Shown here piece after piece: positions 34,395 to 43,300 of a DNA stretch of 64,000 bases; within the stretch, counting starts at the first letter, position 1, and the number at the start of each line of letters is the position of its first letter. The position numbers are program-made. The stretch comes from Anolis carolinensis (taxonomy: Eukaryota), in contig NC_085843.1 of NCBI RefSeq assembly GCF_035594765.1, forward strand, positions 227,703,971 to 227,767,970, in the 5' to 3' direction.

Positions 34395-37300
34395 GCTTCT
34401 ACTAATTCTTAGATTAGATAATGAGCAAACTGCAAAGTAAAGGAACCCTTAGGAACCATGCAATGGGGAAATTCCTGTCATTCGCCAAATGCAAACCAGC
34501 AATCTTTAATGTTTCATCTGTTGCATACAGACTCTTGAGTATTGTCTTGCAAAGACTAAATTAATTAATGAATATTTTAAAAAACATTAGAGAAGAAAGA
34601 AGTTTTGATGGCTACCAATAGAGGCCCACTACTGTGTCAGAACTCCCATAGCGCACTGCTGGATGAGAGAATATATTTTGATTATTTAAAGATAACTAGC
34701 TAATTGGATACCTAGCATGGCTGGAAGTCTTTTGTTAATACATTTTCCAAATGAGTCATAAGTATTTTATTGCATGTTAAAACCTAATTAAAATGTGTCT
34801 ATAAAAGCAGGCTTCTGGTTAAATTCAAAGCTGCGGTGCACACATGATGTTGTGAACTCCAGTAGCCAGAAGGAAAGTAAAACTGTTGCTAACAATGGGA
34901 GTGAGCTGTTGAAGAACCAAGAAAAATCCAGGATCCCCACTCTCCTGGACATTTTTATTTGTAACACACGTGTCAGGGATTGAAGGAAGGAATATGGCTT
35001 GTCTTCATCTGAGAGCACTTCTCTCTAGAAGCTTCTCCACAGACAAGTCCACTGAACACTTCATTCTGGTTTCCTGTTTGGACATACATTGGGTCTGGTG
35101 TGAGGATTCTGACACTTTCCTTGTACAGCTTTTCCAACTGCCCTTATAGCATTGCTATGGCATCCATTGGCTACCATGTGGGAAGAAAGTCTGTAGAGAA
35201 ATTTTATCTGCAAATTCAAATGTTTTCTTCTTTCACTGGATTTTAACCTTCATTTCTTCATTTCATTTGCTGATTTATTCTTTCTATTTGAGTGTTGTTG
35301 GTAATGTCTTGGTAGTGAAGTCTAGGCAATGACACAAAATAGGAGCTTGCATTACATTTCAGTCCAAAGTGGTGAGAAGAAATCTCACTGCACTTCACAT
35401 TTCAGGAGGGGCCCAAATCTCACAGTCCTATCAGTTCTGCCACTAGGAATGAATGAAAACAACTGCTTCAGTGCTGCATGCAATGTCAACATCTACTGAA
35501 GATTTAAGCAAGAAAGCCTCTATCTTCAACACCACAAAGTATATTGTTCTTTGCTCTTCCTTCCGCTCTTCTTCCCTACCTGTCCGTAACTGCTAGAACT
35601 GAGGAAGCAATCATGTGGTCTTCAAGATGTTGTTGGACTAAAAGTCCTAACAGCGCTAACCAAAATAGCAATGAAGAAGAATGTTGGGAGTTGCTGTCCA
35701 AAAATATCTGGAGGGTTGCATGTTTCTCATGTCTGCACATTGCGGGGGGGGGGGGGGGGGGGTAGATCTGGACTATTTAAGTTCAATATGAATTACCATA
35801 TATATTCGAAAATAAGCCGAGTTTTTCAACCCCAAAAAAGGGCTGAAAAAAACCTCCCTCTGCTTATATTGGAGTCAAGGAGCAGTGGAGCCTGGAGGCG
35901 AGGCTTCGAAACCAGCTAGCCTTCGTCTCCATGGAGCGGGGCCGGAGGAGGATAGTGAGTGGTAGCCCCCACGGCAGCGGAGCCCTCAGGCGACGCTCCA
36001 ATGCTTCCACTGCTGTTATCACGGCTCCTCCTCCTCCCCCTAGGCTAGCTGGCTGGCCTTGGAGGACGAGGAAGGGGAGGACAGGCAGAAGTGGCCAGGT
36101 GAAAAAGAGGAGGAGGAGGAGGGGGAGGAGGCAAAGAAGGCCAGGAGGACAGCCAAGAGGAGGAAGGCTGCTGCTGCTGCTTCTCCCCAGTGCTGCTTCT
36201 GCCAGCTCCAGGCTGCGGGCAGGCAGGGGAGGGACTTTAGGAGCAAGCCTGCCATCCTTCTCTTTCTCTCCTTCCTCCTCTTCTTTCAAAGCAGTGGCAC
36301 GGCAGCAGGCTGAGCATTAAACTCTTCATCTCCTTCCTCCTCTTCCAAAGTAAAGGTGGCAGCGCTGCTTTGGAAGGAGAGGAGGACGGAGAGGAAGAGG
36401 AGGATGGCCAACAGGCTTCTAAAGTCTCTCCCTTGCCCGTCCGTCACCAGGAACCAGTGAGTATGGAGGAAGCAGGGCTTCCTTGCACCCTCTATTCACA
36501 AGGAGACCCCAAGGGGAGGCTGCTCTCTCTCCTTCCCCCCTCCGTCCTCACCAAAAGGGACACAAAAGCAGGGAGCCTGCCTCTGCAAACATTCCTCTCT
36601 GTGTGTATATGTGACTTTGCCCAGCTTCCAATCCCAAGGCTATCTTGCACTCCTCTCCTCCTAAGGAGACCTCAAAAGGGGTTGGAGGTGCCAGGCTTCT
36701 TTCTCACCCTCCCCCGTGTATCCCTCACCACACTACTCACCAAAAGGGAACAAAAGGGACTCAGAGCAATTTCCAACGAAAGATGGCAAACATTCGATGC
36801 CAGAATACACCAACAATGAGAATGAAACTGTTAGCAAAGGTAAAATCCTTAGGTTGCAGAGTATTAAAAAATAAAGCTGCAGCAGAAACAAAAGCCCTGA
36901 AGTAATGTGGTCAAACTTAATTTAATACAGAAGCATAATGCAGGAACAAAACAAAACTCAAAGAGAAAAAACACAGCAGAACAGGCAGAGTGCAAAGTGC
37001 AAAGAATATATATATAACAAACACAGCTCCACCTGTATCAAATTGACAAAGCATATTACCTGTTAAAGGTACATGAACAATATAATTTTGTAACATTATA
37101 ATACTTTCAACACTCCTCCACAAAATTATATTAGTTCACATTTATAAATTCAATTTCTTACAGAACTCATTATGTTTTTCAAAAGAAAGAGGTTTAGTAA
37201 AAATGTCAGCAACATTTTCAACTGAAGGAATATAATTGAGAACAATTCTTTTGTCTTTAACAAATTGTTGTACATTTGAATATCTGACATTAATATATCT

Positions 37301-40300: not shown

Positions 40301-43300
40301 ACACTTTACCAAATGTTGAGAACAGCCCGAGTCAATGATGAAAGAGTTCATGGTATCCATTTTAGAAGTCACCAGGAAAGCATGCTGAAAATCCTTTGAA
40401 GAACTAGGTCTCTCCACCTGCTTATTTTTCCATTGTCCTGGATTCTGCCAGCAATTCTTAGCATAATGCCCTTTCTTTTTGCATTTATAGCATACAACTT
40501 GTGATTTTGGCTTAGCAACACAAGCAGTGTCTTTACAAGCAGTGTCCTTAGAAACAGTTCCCAGATTCTTCTGTATAGAATCAACACTTCTCAATTTACT
40601 TTGAGCTTCAAATTCCATTTTTTCCCCGAAATAAACGGTATCGTGAGATCCGTGTCTGGAATTCCATGAAGAGAGTCAATAAATGCATAATAAGAGCGAG
40701 ATAAAGACCCCATTAAAATTAATGCTTGTTGCTCAGGAGGAAAAATAATATCTCTTGCTCTCAATTCCGAAAAAAGAGCCACAACTTTTGTAATGTGAGA
40801 TTGAACTGGAGTGCCTTCCTCATGTTTGAGGTTCAACAGCTGGCGCATAAGAATTATCTTTGAGCCACTTGATTGTCTTTGGAACATATCTTTAAACAAA
40901 TTCCATGCAGTTTGTGCATGAGGAATATTATGAAGGTGAACCAACAAAGAATCCGTCACAGACAACTGAAGCAGCGCCAATGCTCTTTCATCTTGGTGTT
41001 GCTCAGCAGGAGTTAATTGAGCTGGCAAATTCTCAATTATTTTCCATAAATTCTGAGAAACCAGATAAGCTTTAAATCTTATACTCCAACTCAGCCAATT
41101 CTTATCATTCAGTCTCTCAAACGGGAGTGAACTCACTTGAACAGGCGGCAAGGCCATTGTGTTCTTTTACTTTAAAGCTCCAAAGTTCCAAAAAAAAAAA
41201 TTCAGACCAGCCAGTCTATACTCACTCCTCCATGAAATTACTGGTTTCTTCCAAACTTCGCTGTATTTCTTTGGAATACAAGCAGGGTCTGACTCACAGA
41301 CTTTTAGTTTCTTCTTTCAGCTTCCAAAATATTTACTGAAGAGAAAACCTTCCATGCAAGGCATAAAAGGAAAGCAACAAAAAATTGGCCCTAGTTGCAC
41401 AAGCATGTAGAAGGCAAACCAAACAAACACTTCACCATAGCAGGCTATAAATCTTCTTCATGCCTCCAGGTCTCTCCCAAGGTTCAGCATTCAGCAGCAA
41501 ACTGCCGCTTTTAAACTTCGCTGCTCTTCAAAACAGCAGGAGCAAAAAAAACCTTTTCAAACCACATACTTCAAAATAAAACATCAGCACAAACACATTG
41601 GCTTTGTAGTTTTCTGGGCCCATAACCTGTTAGCAAAGGTAAAATCCTTAGGTTGCAGAGTATTAAAAAATAAAGCTGCAGCAGAAACAAAAGCCCTGAA
41701 GTAATGTGGTCAAACTTAATTTAATACAGAAGCATAATGCAGGAACAAAACAAAACTCAAAGAGAAAAAACACAGCAGAACAGGCAGAGTGCAAAGTGCA
41801 AAGAATATATATATAACAAACACAGCTCCACCTGTATCAAATTGACAAAGCATATTACCTGTTAAAGGTACATGAACAATATAATTTTGTAACATTATAA
41901 TACTTTCAACAGAAACAACCCCCCAGATCCACAAAAACAATTCAAAACTGGGTTGCTGTGAGTTTTCCACCAATATTAAAGTGTGTGTGTGCGCGTGCGC
42001 GCACCCACGCGCGTGCATGTGTCAGAGATCTCGGCGAGTTGTGAGCCTTCCTCACACATCTTCCTACCCCATTAGCCTTTTTCCTTCCCTCCCTGGATCA
42101 GACTGAACCACACAAACAAACTTGCAGGTTTTCTCCTTTGATAGGACAATGAATCCCCCTCCCTCCCTGAAAATAATAATAAAAAGAGGACAAAAGCGGA
42201 TCTCTATGTGTATATTATGTGTTTGGAGGAGGGAGAGATCTCTGCGAAAGAGGTGGGGGAGAGAGAGAAACGGGGATTTTGCAAAGGGAGCCTGGAAAGC
42301 AGCGGATCCATTGCTATGGGCCGGGCTGTGGTGCAGCTGGTCAAGTAGCCAGCTGCAATAAATCACTCTGACCAAAAGGTCATGAGTTCGAGGCCAGCCC
42401 ATGCCCGGGTGAGCACCCGACAATTAAAATTAAAAATAGCCCATGCTCGTTGTTGACCTAAACAACCAAAAGATAGTTGCATCTATCAAGTAGGAATTTA
42501 GGTACCACTCTGCGGGGAGGCAAATTTAACTAATTTACAACACCAAAAAAATCATCCAGCTCCTATTTGGAATGAGGAAGTATCCATCAAGATGCCACAG
42601 TGGATGATGAAGCAGCTGCTCCTCCTGTGGCCGGAATCAAGCATCCCCTCAGGAAGCTGGAAGCTGGAGAATGTTAAATCGTCTCTGTGTCTCTGTCTCT
42701 GTCTCTATGTTCATATGGCATTGAATGTTTGCCATTATATGTGCACATTGTGATCTGCCCTGAGTCCCCTTTGGGGTGAGAAGGGTGGAATATAAATACT
42801 GTAAATAAATAAATAAATTTGAGGGAAGGGGCAGCTTATGTGCTGCTCTTGCTGCTTCTGGGTCTCTCTGTGCGAAAGGGAATCGTTGGGAGGAGGAGAG
42901 AAAGAAGCCAAAGGGGACGTGTTTGTGAGTGCTTCCTTTGCCCAGTCTTTGTGGTCCCTTCCCAATCCTTGATCTCTTCAGATAAAGCAAAAGGAGAGCC
43001 CCCCTTCTCTCCTCTTCCCTCCCAGAGAGGGGAGCAGCTGGAAAACAGCGAGAAAGAAGAGAGCAGGGCAGGCTTGAGGTTGCATGGCGGGATTCCTTGC
43101 CTTTAAAGCACAGTGTAAAACCTGCAAGGATGTCCACTCAGTTTGAGTGCAGTTCAGTCTGAGCCAGGGAAGGCTGGGAAAGAACTCTTGTCTGCTTGAG
43201 GTACATGTGACTGTTGCAATTGGCCACCTTGATTAGCATTGAATGGGCTTGCAGCTTCAAAGCCTAGCTGGTAGCTGCCTGAGGGAATCCTTTGTTGGGA

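What the first reader, a model, noticed from the sequence alone, without database searches (positions are those of the whole stretch)
36829..41911. Very recent, complete Ty1/copia insertion in an amniote-type genome
Seen: two 284-bp LTRs identical base for base, a perfect GAAAC TSD, and an uninterrupted 1158-codon Pol with all catalytic motifs. Known: copia elements are abundant in plants, fungi and insects but sparse in vertebrates and essentially absent from mammals and birds. Inference: this lineage is currently or very recently active in a lizard, and is either a vertically retained relic or a horizontal acquisition. It sits inside lizard-type repeats, which argues against contamination.
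Basis: partly seen in the sequence, partly recalled or inferred. Interest (0 to 1): 0.7.

Follow-up and report, generated by a model that had tools for sequence, protein, structure and literature searches.

The report
Young copia retrotransposon in anole DNA
This is an ordinary, recently inserted copia-type jumping gene in a lizard (anole-like) genome, a kind already known to be common and recently active in lizards and snakes, and its protein-coding part is split into two reading frames.

Summary
Two 284-bp LTRs (36829-37112, 41628-41911) have 0 differences and TG..CA ends. A GAAAC duplication flanks them. An open 1158-codon ORF carries every protease, integrase, reverse-transcriptase and RNase H catalytic residue.

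The element lies on the minus strand, and "complete" needs a qualifier. The copia-type gag lies in a separate short ORF, in another frame from the zinc knuckle and pol: one frame change, no stops. Ninety-seven of the 120 listed relatives carry gag and pol in one protein. This copy is therefore either defective, read by recoding, or carries an assembly length error.

The host is anole-like: the neighbouring L1 ORF2 is 90% identical to an Anolis carolinensis protein.

The novelty claim fails. Copia occurs in 23 of 24 squamate genomes with record copy numbers (PMC11889832). In green anoles, 1962 Copia insertions sit among the polymorphic TE insertions scored (PMC7561263).

Horizontal arrival is not supported. 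The nearest named relative is a squamate copia (178/200 bootstraps), and the element's CpG depletion equals the host background.

Identical LTRs bound the age only to about 2.6-10.5 Myr. Interest is low.

The parts
36824..36828 (.). Target-site duplication, left copy (GAAAC)
   Evidence: Read directly; identical to 41912-41916.
36829..37112 (-). 3' LTR (284 bp) relative to the coding strand
   Evidence: 0 differences from the other LTR. TG..CA ends. No CpG at all.
37113..37121 (-). Polypurine tract candidate, abutting the 3' LTR
   Evidence: 8 of the 9 bases next to the LTR are purines on the coding strand, and 10 of the last 15. Only 29 nt lie between the pol stop and the LTR, so there is no room for an env gene.
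37142..41157 (-). gag-pol coding region, given as one part. It is read in two frames, with one frame change between the capsid-like gag domain and the zinc knuckle, and no internal stop in either ORF.
   Evidence: pol frame is -1 relative to gag. N-terminus aligns with residue 1 of relative P0001. C-terminus aligns with residue 1275 of 1276.
40666..41073 (-). Copia-type capsid (gag) domain
   Evidence: Pfam Retrotran_gag_2, E 5.9e-22, profile positions 2-145 of 172. DUF4219, E 4.3e-05.
40451..40495 (-). CCHC zinc knuckle (nucleocapsid-like)
   Evidence: Pfam zf-CCHC, residues 42-56 of the long ORF. C43, C46, H51 and C56 are invariant in 14 sequences.
40109..40342 (-). Aspartic protease region
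   Evidence: Pfam Pol_BBD, E 8.3e-13, residues 93-170. D96-S97-G98 invariant.
39083..40030 (-). Integrase: zinc-binding part, catalytic core and SH3-like domain
   Evidence: Pfam gag_pre-integrs 197-266, rve 290-385, SH3_retrovirus 444-512. HHCC and D293/D356/E392 invariant. All 14 solved-structure matches cover the integrase part; the best is 7z0h chain W, E 1e-07.
37847..38545 (-). Reverse transcriptase (copia type)
   Evidence: Pfam RVT_2, E 7.2e-62, residues 692-924. D766, D852 and D853 invariant.
37184..37606 (-). RNase H-like C-terminal part (approximate bounds)
   Evidence: No Pfam model matched. Bounds come from the invariant acidic residues D1013, E1053 and D1089 in alignment A1 and from alignment to the C-termini of P0001, P0122 and P0126.
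41610..41627 (-). Primer-binding-site candidate, directly next to the 5' LTR
   Evidence: Position only. The primer tRNA was not identified: the window has no tRNA gene and no lizard tRNA set was at hand.
41628..41911 (-). 5' LTR (284 bp)
   Evidence: On the coding strand, TATA-like motifs lie at LTR positions 97-101 and a poly(A) signal at 187. This is the usual U3-R-U5 order.
41912..41916 (.). Target-site duplication, right copy (GAAAC)

Best explanation
This is a young insertion of an endogenous squamate Ty1/copia LTR retrotransposon, most probably of the Mtanga clade, in an Anolis-like genome.

How such a copy arises (established knowledge of LTR retrotransposons, inferred here):
1. A source copy is transcribed from its 5' LTR.
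2. Gag and Gag-Pol form particles.
3. Reverse transcription is primed at the site next to the 5' LTR and at the polypurine tract. This makes two identical LTRs.
4. The integrase inserts the DNA with a 5-bp target duplication.

Shown here: the identical LTRs, TG..CA ends, the GAAAC duplication, the primer-site and polypurine positions, the copia domain order, and all catalytic residues.

The copy is structurally complete, but its coding region is split by one frame change that falls in the tail of the gag domain. I read that change as:
- a real defect of this copy or of its source lineage: about 0.55;
- a programmed -1 recoding site: about 0.25;
- a length error of the assembly: about 0.2.

The lineage has lived for a long time in CpG-methylating (vertebrate) genomes. 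It is not a recent arrival.
For: Structure.

Copia identity: Pfam Retrotran_gag_2, zf-CCHC, Pol_BBD, rve, SH3_retrovirus and RVT_2, with integrase before RT.

Catalytic residues are invariant against 13 relatives.

Host: the 26 best hits of the neighbouring L1 ORF2 are Anolis carolinensis proteins, up to 90% identity.

Lineage: NJ tree of RT/RNase H, 22 sequences, 490 columns, 200 bootstraps.
- The element groups with four unnamed proteins in 176/200.
- That group joins the copia-derived protein of the squamate Rhineura floridana (P0126) in 178/200.
- Plant and pseudoscorpion sequences fall elsewhere.

Composition: CpG o/e is 0.24 with GpC 1.15, TpG 1.26 and CpA 1.32, the same as the rest of the window (0.25, 1.05, 1.21, 1.22).

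Literature:
- Copia in 23 of 24 squamates; only the Mtanga clade in Lepidosauria (PMC11889832).
- Copia accounts for 1962 of the polymorphic TE insertions scored in green anoles (PMC7561263).
- Copia present in reptiles and lost in birds and mammals (PMC4350176).

Frame change as a defect:
- 97 of the 120 listed relatives carry gag and pol domains in one protein (my count).
- In P0122 and P0126 the distance from the last residue aligned to this gag to the zinc knuckle is 42 residues. Here it is the same within one codon, although read in two frames.
- In 4 of 4 close relatives scanned (P0122, P0123, P0124, P0126) the Pfam gag domain runs 11-12 residues past the point where similarity to this element's gag frame stops.
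- No canonical slippery heptamer lies in register in the stretch open in both frames.
- There is no unusual RNA structure there (z -0.06).
Against: - No DNA of the host genome, Repbase or Dfam could be searched. Copy number, family name and the frame state of sister copies are unknown.
- The Mtanga assignment rests on the literature plus grouping with one squamate sequence. No Mtanga reference was in the tree.
- The nearest proteins are distant: 37% full length, 42-43% over RT/RNase H, at most 36% for gag. The tree is thinly sampled, and the four nearest sequences are unnamed.
- With 0 LTR differences, few post-insertion mutations are expected. A frame-breaking change would have to be inherited from the source or made during the copying. 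This keeps the programmed-recoding reading and the assembly-error reading alive.
- The stretch open in both frames holds one homopolymer run of 5 or more. Such a run is prone both to slippage and to sequencing length errors.
Confidence: 0.85

Rival explanations
1. Recent horizontal acquisition: the family entered the lizard lineage lately from a non-squamate donor such as an arthropod, parasite or plant.
For: - No close relative exists in the protein sets. The best full-length match is 37% identical among 836 hits. For gag, 0 of 2585 hits reach E 1e-30.
- Named hits include a wasp, a pseudoscorpion, a nematode and plants at 28-38% identity.
- The authors of PMC11889832 leave open an ancient horizontal origin of sarcopterygian Copia.
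Against: - The nearest named relative is a squamate copia, 178/200 bootstraps.
- No donor-like sequence stands out. All non-squamate named hits are at or below 38% identity.
- CpG depletion with TpG/CpA excess equals the host background. It is stronger than in the other intact TEs of the window, which show CpG o/e of 0.51-0.72. This points to long residence in methylating genomes.
- Copia is nearly universal in squamates, 23 of 24, so the distribution is not patchy.
- TE proteins of vertebrates are under-represented in protein sets, so the lack of close hits says little.
Confidence: 0.05
2. The two-frame layout is by design. Gag is made from the upstream frame, and a -1 slip of the ribosome or the polymerase yields Gag-Pol. 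On this reading the copy is fully coding-competent.
For: - Pol lies in the -1 frame relative to gag, with 85 nt open in both frames. This is the layout of retroviral frameshifting.
- Both ORFs are otherwise free of stops, and the LTRs are identical.
- Some Ty1/copia elements use frameshifting (Ty1) or stop read-through (Tca2), as stated in PMC5580714.
- One homopolymer run lies in the overlap.
Against: - No canonical X_XXY_YYZ heptamer is in register.
- The RNA fold is no better than shuffles: z -0.06, with 92 of 200 shuffles folding as well.
- The zinc knuckle would be missing from free Gag.
- The frame change falls inside the tail of the Pfam gag domain rather than after the nucleocapsid.
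- Close relatives, including a squamate one, read straight through with the same spacing.
Confidence: 0.25
3. The frame change is an assembly or sequencing length error, and the real copy has one continuous gag-pol frame.
For: - There is exactly one frame change and no stop in about 4 kb of coding sequence.
- The layout is collinear with single-frame relatives to within one codon.
- One homopolymer run of 5 or more lies in the stretch open in both frames.
- A 64-kb repeat-rich window without any N suggests a long-read assembly, where such errors occur. This last point is my inference.
Against: No read data were available. The other large TE ORFs of the window (1253, 1086 and 620 codons) are open, so the consensus quality looks high.
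Confidence: 0.2
4. This is an old insertion whose LTRs were made identical again by gene conversion, or whose LTRs were collapsed by the assembler.
For: LTR-LTR conversion is known in principle (recalled, no call). Identity of only 284 bp is a weak clock.
Against: - The target duplication is perfect.
- There are no stops in 1158 plus nearly 200 codons, and all catalytic residues are kept.
- Both coding ends are complete against relatives.
An old copy would have decayed.
Confidence: 0.03

Closest known systems
Mtanga-clade Copia elements of Lepidosauria (squamates and tuatara), as surveyed in PMC11889832 and PMC7116210
   Same: Same host group and same superfamily. These are full-length copies with recognisable LTRs, taken by those authors as a sign of recent transposition. 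By their account, lepidosaur Copia all fall in this one clade.
   Different: Membership was not tested directly, because no Mtanga reference sequence was available to me. This element is only 36% identical in RT/RNase H to the one named squamate copia I could fetch, so it is a separate, deeply split lineage within that assemblage.
Copia-derived gene model of Rhineura floridana (XP_061477847.1, annotated as ATG10 isoform X1; P0126)
   Same: It has copia gag, zinc knuckle, protease, RT and RNase H. It is the nearest named relative in the tree (178/200). The spacing from gag to zinc knuckle is the same.
   Different: P0126 reads gag and zinc knuckle in one frame and lacks the integrase part. Identity is 36% over RT/RNase H and 32% over gag.
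Yeast Ty1
   Same: Same superfamily. The best solved-structure match of the integrase part is 7z0h chain W, named 'Integrase' (E 1e-07); that this entry is the Ty1 integrase is my recollection. Gag and pol lie in two frames in both.
   Different: Ty1 shifts frame by a defined translational signal (PMC5580714); the direction, +1, is my recollection. Here pol is in the -1 frame and no known signal was found.
Single-ORF Ty1/copia elements (plant TNT1-94-type hits; Drosophila copia)
   Same: Same domain set and order. Overall identity is 27-35%.
   Different: These encode gag-pol in one frame and adjust the Gag:Pol ratio by splicing or other means (PMC5580714). This copy has two frames.

Membership tests
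Ty1/copia (Pseudoviridae-type) LTR retrotransposon | Direct LTRs ending TG..CA | tested here: met
   284-bp LTRs, 0 differences, TG..CA ends.
Ty1/copia (Pseudoviridae-type) LTR retrotransposon | 5-bp target-site duplication | tested here: met
   GAAAC on both sides.
Ty1/copia (Pseudoviridae-type) LTR retrotransposon | Integrase encoded upstream of reverse transcriptase (protease, integrase, RT, RNase H) | tested here: met
   Pfam: Pol_BBD 93-170, rve 290-385, RVT_2 692-924 in the long ORF.
Ty1/copia (Pseudoviridae-type) LTR retrotransposon | Copia-type RT (RVT_2) and copia-type gag (Retrotran_gag_2) | tested here: met
   E 7.2e-62 and E 5.9e-22, both above the curated cut-offs.
Ty1/copia (Pseudoviridae-type) LTR retrotransposon | Primer-binding site complementary to a host tRNA next to the 5' LTR, and a polypurine tract next to the 3' LTR | tested here: inconclusive
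   A polypurine candidate is present, 8 of 9 purines. The primer site is assigned by position only. No tRNA sequence was available to compare.
Ty1/copia (Pseudoviridae-type) LTR retrotransposon | No envelope gene | tested here: met
   Only 29 nt lie between the pol stop and the 3' LTR.
Mtanga clade of Copia | RT/RNase H groups with the Anopheles Mtanga reference in a tree | not testable with these tools
   No tool fetches the reference by name, and no named Mtanga hit came back. Indirect evidence: the element groups with a squamate copia, and PMC11889832 reports only Mtanga in Lepidosauria.
Coding-competent (autonomous) element | Gag and Pol readable without breaks, or with a recognised recoding signal | tested here: inconclusive
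   One frame change and no stops. No canonical slippery site and no structure. Catalytic residues are intact.
Currently active family | Insertion polymorphism, transcripts, many near-identical copies | not testable with these tools
   No host genome, reads or expression data were available. At superfamily level, Copia accounts for 1962 of the polymorphic TE insertions scored in green anoles (PMC7561263).
Horizontally transferred element | Closer to elements of an unrelated taxon than host divergence allows; foreign composition; patchy distribution | tested here: not met
   The nearest named relative is a squamate. CpG, GpC, TpG and CpA match the host background. Copia is present in 23 of 24 squamates.

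The most novel reading that the evidence does not exclude
The two-frame layout may be a family trait. On this reading a squamate copia lineage makes a capsid-only Gag and delivers the zinc-knuckle nucleocapsid only as part of Gag-Pol, through a -1 shift at a non-canonical site. That expression strategy has not been described for copia elements. It would belong to a deep-branching lineage that has no relative above 43% identity in 5.8 billion proteins and is still inserting in anoles.
Probability: 0.1. Interest if true: 0.45.

Novelty: already known. Interest (0 to 1): 0.14.

Why it matters
It matters little beyond annotation. The copy is a clean example of a young copia insertion in an anole-type genome. 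It could serve as a presence/absence marker. It is also one data point for the open question of whether lepidosaur Copia persisted vertically or arose from an old transfer. The one feature worth a second look is the frame change between the capsid domain and the zinc knuckle. If sister copies share it, it would show an unusual way of setting the Gag to Gag-Pol ratio.

Tried and rejected
- tRNA and Rfam scans of the whole window found nothing.
- A whole-window repeat search found no second copy or solo LTR of this element.
- A Pfam scan of 33 stop-free stretches in the flanks (34.1-36.8 kb and 41.9-46.0 kb) gave no match above E 0.018. These 33 were chosen from the 72 stretches of 50 codons or more listed. 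A language-model look-up of the 192-codon open stretch that ends just before the insertion gave no usable hit. 'Nested in lizard repeats' therefore stays unshown for the immediate flanks.
- A Pfam scan of the head of the pol frame, to look for the missing tail of the gag domain, found only the zinc knuckle. The piece is too short to decide.
- The RNA fold of the overlap region shows no signal.
- Looking for names of the nearest proteins: 2 of 8 clusters carry a name.
- Contamination or misjoin was rejected. The element has its own target duplication within N-free sequence that has host-like composition.
- Two papers are not held: the anole genome paper and Gao et al. 2003 on recoding. I know the latter only through its citation in PMC5580714.
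- No copia or squamate passage occurs in the main text of PMC7070016. Its supplements were not looked at.
- Not checked:
  - any DNA-level search for sister copies.
  - Repbase and Dfam.
The two frames were always searched apart.
- Nothing in the window was taken for human.

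
Full report
OBSERVATION

A repeat search finds one long direct repeat around the finding. Read base by base, the LTRs are 36829-37112 and 41628-41911. Each is 284 bp, and they show 0 differences. They start TG, end CA, and have a 4-nt perfect terminal inverted repeat. GAAAC lies at 36824-36828 and again at 41912-41916. The chance of such a 5-nt match is about 0.001. The element is 5083 bp long. The window has no N, 39.6% G+C and a CpG observed/expected ratio of 0.32.

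ANATOMY

All coding capacity is on the minus strand, so the right-hand LTR is the 5' LTR.
- On the coding strand the LTR carries TATA-like motifs at positions 97-101 and a poly(A) signal at 187.
- A 470-nt leader follows.
- A short ORF then starts at 41157. It matches the copia-type gag families Retrotran_gag_2 (E 5.9e-22) and DUF4219.
- The 1158-codon ORF ends at 37142. Its matches, in order, are a CCHC zinc knuckle, Pol_BBD (spanning the D-S-G protease motif), gag_pre-integrs, the rve integrase core, SH3_retrovirus and RVT_2 (E 7.2e-62).
- Only 29 nt separate the stop from the 3' LTR, and the last 9 of them are 8 purines. There is no room for an envelope gene.

Integrase before reverse transcriptase, together with a 5-bp duplication, is the Ty1/copia signature. 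In an alignment with 13 relatives, 78 columns are invariant. They include every expected catalytic or metal-binding residue of the zinc knuckle, protease, integrase, RT and RNase H. The N-terminus of gag and the C-terminus of pol both align end to end with relative P0001. Sequence matches to solved structures all cover the integrase part (14 of 14). The best is 7z0h chain W, E 1e-07.

Gag and pol are in different frames. Pol is -1 relative to gag, and 85 nt are open in both frames. That is one frame change and no stops.

Evidence that single-frame reading is the norm among relatives:
- By my count, 97 of the 120 best relatives listed carry the gag domain and the pol domains in one protein.
- In P0122 (unnamed) and in P0126 (a Rhineura floridana gene model), the last residue aligned to this gag and the zinc knuckle are 42 residues apart in one frame. 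Here the distance is the same within one codon.
- In 28 of the 30 best gag hits, similarity ends a few residues before the gag frame's stop.
- In 4 of 4 close relatives scanned, the Pfam gag domain goes on for 11-12 residues more. The change therefore sits in the tail of the gag domain, upstream of the zinc knuckle.

Evidence on a programmed signal:
- No canonical slippery heptamer is in register.
- The local RNA fold is no better than shuffles (z -0.06).
- One homopolymer run of five or more lies in the doubly open stretch.

Because the LTRs show no change, few mutations since insertion are expected. At most about 24 are expected in the internal 4.5 kb at the 95% bound. A defect would then be inherited from the source copy or made during the copying.

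I weigh the readings as follows: real defect 0.55, programmed -1 recoding 0.25, assembly length error 0.2.

HOST AND SURROUNDINGS

The window also holds other large TE ORFs:
- an L1-like element with open ORF1 and ORF2 (11355-16167, minus);
- another non-LTR RT (46820-48682);
- a Ty3/gypsy pol (60697-63957).

The 26 best hits of the L1 ORF2 are all Anolis carolinensis proteins, from 90% identity downwards. Podarcis reaches 42% and Naja 40%. The window is therefore from an anole or a close relative, and nothing in it looks human.

The immediate flanks show no protein-family match and no look-alike. No other copy or solo LTR of the element is in the window. I cannot confirm that the element sits inside a lizard repeat. 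Even so, contamination is excluded by the target duplication inside continuous host-like sequence.

RELATIVES AND ORIGIN

No close relative exists in the protein sets.
- The best full-length pol match is 37% identical, among 836 hits.
- The best RT fragment is 42% identical, among 200 hits at E 1e-20 or better.
- The best gag match is 36% identical, with 2585 hits at E 0.001 or better and none at E 1e-30.

This says little, because vertebrate TE proteins are seldom annotated.

A neighbour-joining tree of RT/RNase H used 22 sequences, 490 columns and 200 bootstraps. It groups the element with four unnamed proteins (176/200). That group joins the squamate Rhineura copia (178/200). Plant, alga and pseudoscorpion sequences fall elsewhere.

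The element's dinucleotide profile is CpG 0.24, GpC 1.15, TpG 1.26 and CpA 1.32. This equals that of the rest of the window (0.25, 1.05, 1.21, 1.22). The other intact TEs keep CpG at 0.51-0.72. The LTR has no CpG at all. Since the insertion is young, this decay belongs to the lineage. The lineage has spent a long time in methylating genomes, which argues against a recent arrival from an unmethylated donor.

WHAT IS KNOWN

- Chalopin et al. 2015 (PMC4350176, passages): Copia is present in reptiles, amphibians and fishes and was lost in birds and mammals.
- The 2025 survey (PMC11889832, passages and Additional file 3):
  - Copia was found in 23 of 24 squamates.
  - Squamates hold 66% of all metazoan copies detected.
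  - Only the Mtanga clade occurs in Lepidosauria.
  - The Anolis carolinensis row reads '10*' with 6 in Mtanga. The sheet does not explain the asterisk. In the text, Repbase elements stand in for some taxa.
  - The authors themselves discuss vertical persistence against old transfer.
- The tuatara genome paper reports an abundant Mtanga-like element (PMC7116210, passage).
- Bourgeois et al. 2020 (PMC7561263, passages with Table 1) list Copia with N = 1962 among the polymorphic TE insertions scored in 28 anoles. They read LTR-element frequency spectra as showing recent activity.
- Oberlin et al. 2017 (PMC5580714, passages) summarise how copia-type elements set the Gag:Pol ratio: frameshifting in Ty1, stop read-through in Tca2, splicing in copia and plant elements, and many single-ORF elements.

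VERDICT

The classification as Ty1/copia and the lizard host are right. The insertion is young, although 284-bp LTRs bound the age only to about 2.6-10.5 Myr at 95% for assumed rates of 2e-9 to 0.5e-9 per site per year (the rates are my assumption). The claims of rarity and of a possible horizontal origin are not supported. Copia is common and recently active in squamates, and this element looks like a long-term resident. 'Complete' is true of the structure but not of the reading frame.

The kind is already known. Whether this particular family is already catalogued could not be checked, because Repbase, Dfam and the host genome were not searchable here.

Noticed in passing
window 11355-16167 (minus): L1-like non-LTR retrotransposon with both ORFs open: ORF2 of 1253 codons (endonuclease plus RT) and an upstream ORF of 357 codons. 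ORF2 is 90% identical to an Anolis carolinensis protein. CpG o/e is 0.72, far above the background.
   Followed up: partly
window 46820-49510 (minus): A second non-LTR RT ORF of 620 codons (RVT_1, E 9e-37), with a 205-codon ORF just upstream of it on the same strand. The clade was not determined.
   Followed up: no
window 60697-63957 (minus): Ty3/gypsy pol ORF of 1086 codons (protease, RT, RNase H, integrase, SH3) close to the window's end. Its gag and 5' LTR would lie beyond the window.
   Followed up: no
window 36370-36819 (plus): A 149-codon ORF (192 codons stop to stop) ends 5 nt before the target duplication. It has no Pfam match and no look-alike, so it may be chance.
   Followed up: partly
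window 5550-6043; 29008-29206; 285-431 and 29353-29498: Hairpin-like inverted repeats of 61-94 nt arms at 87-98% complementarity. One is repeated at two places 29 kb apart. They look like MITE-type elements.
   Followed up: no
window 23348-23614 vs 30950-31219; 8885-9098 vs 45707-45921; 22139-22289 vs 31369-31523: Interspersed repeats of 150-270 bp at 81-89% identity, in direct or inverted orientation. They are probably SINE-like or other short host repeats.
   Followed up: no
long ORF residues about 530-640 (window about 38700-39030, minus): A low-complexity linker rich in Gln, Ser and Thr lies between the integrase SH3-like domain and RT. It aligns poorly with relatives.
   Followed up: no
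protein P0126 (NCBI XP_061477847.1, Rhineura floridana): A gene model named 'ubiquitin-like-conjugating enzyme ATG10 isoform X1' consists largely of copia gag, zinc knuckle, protease, RT and RNase H. It is probably a chimeric or mis-annotated model.
   Followed up: partly
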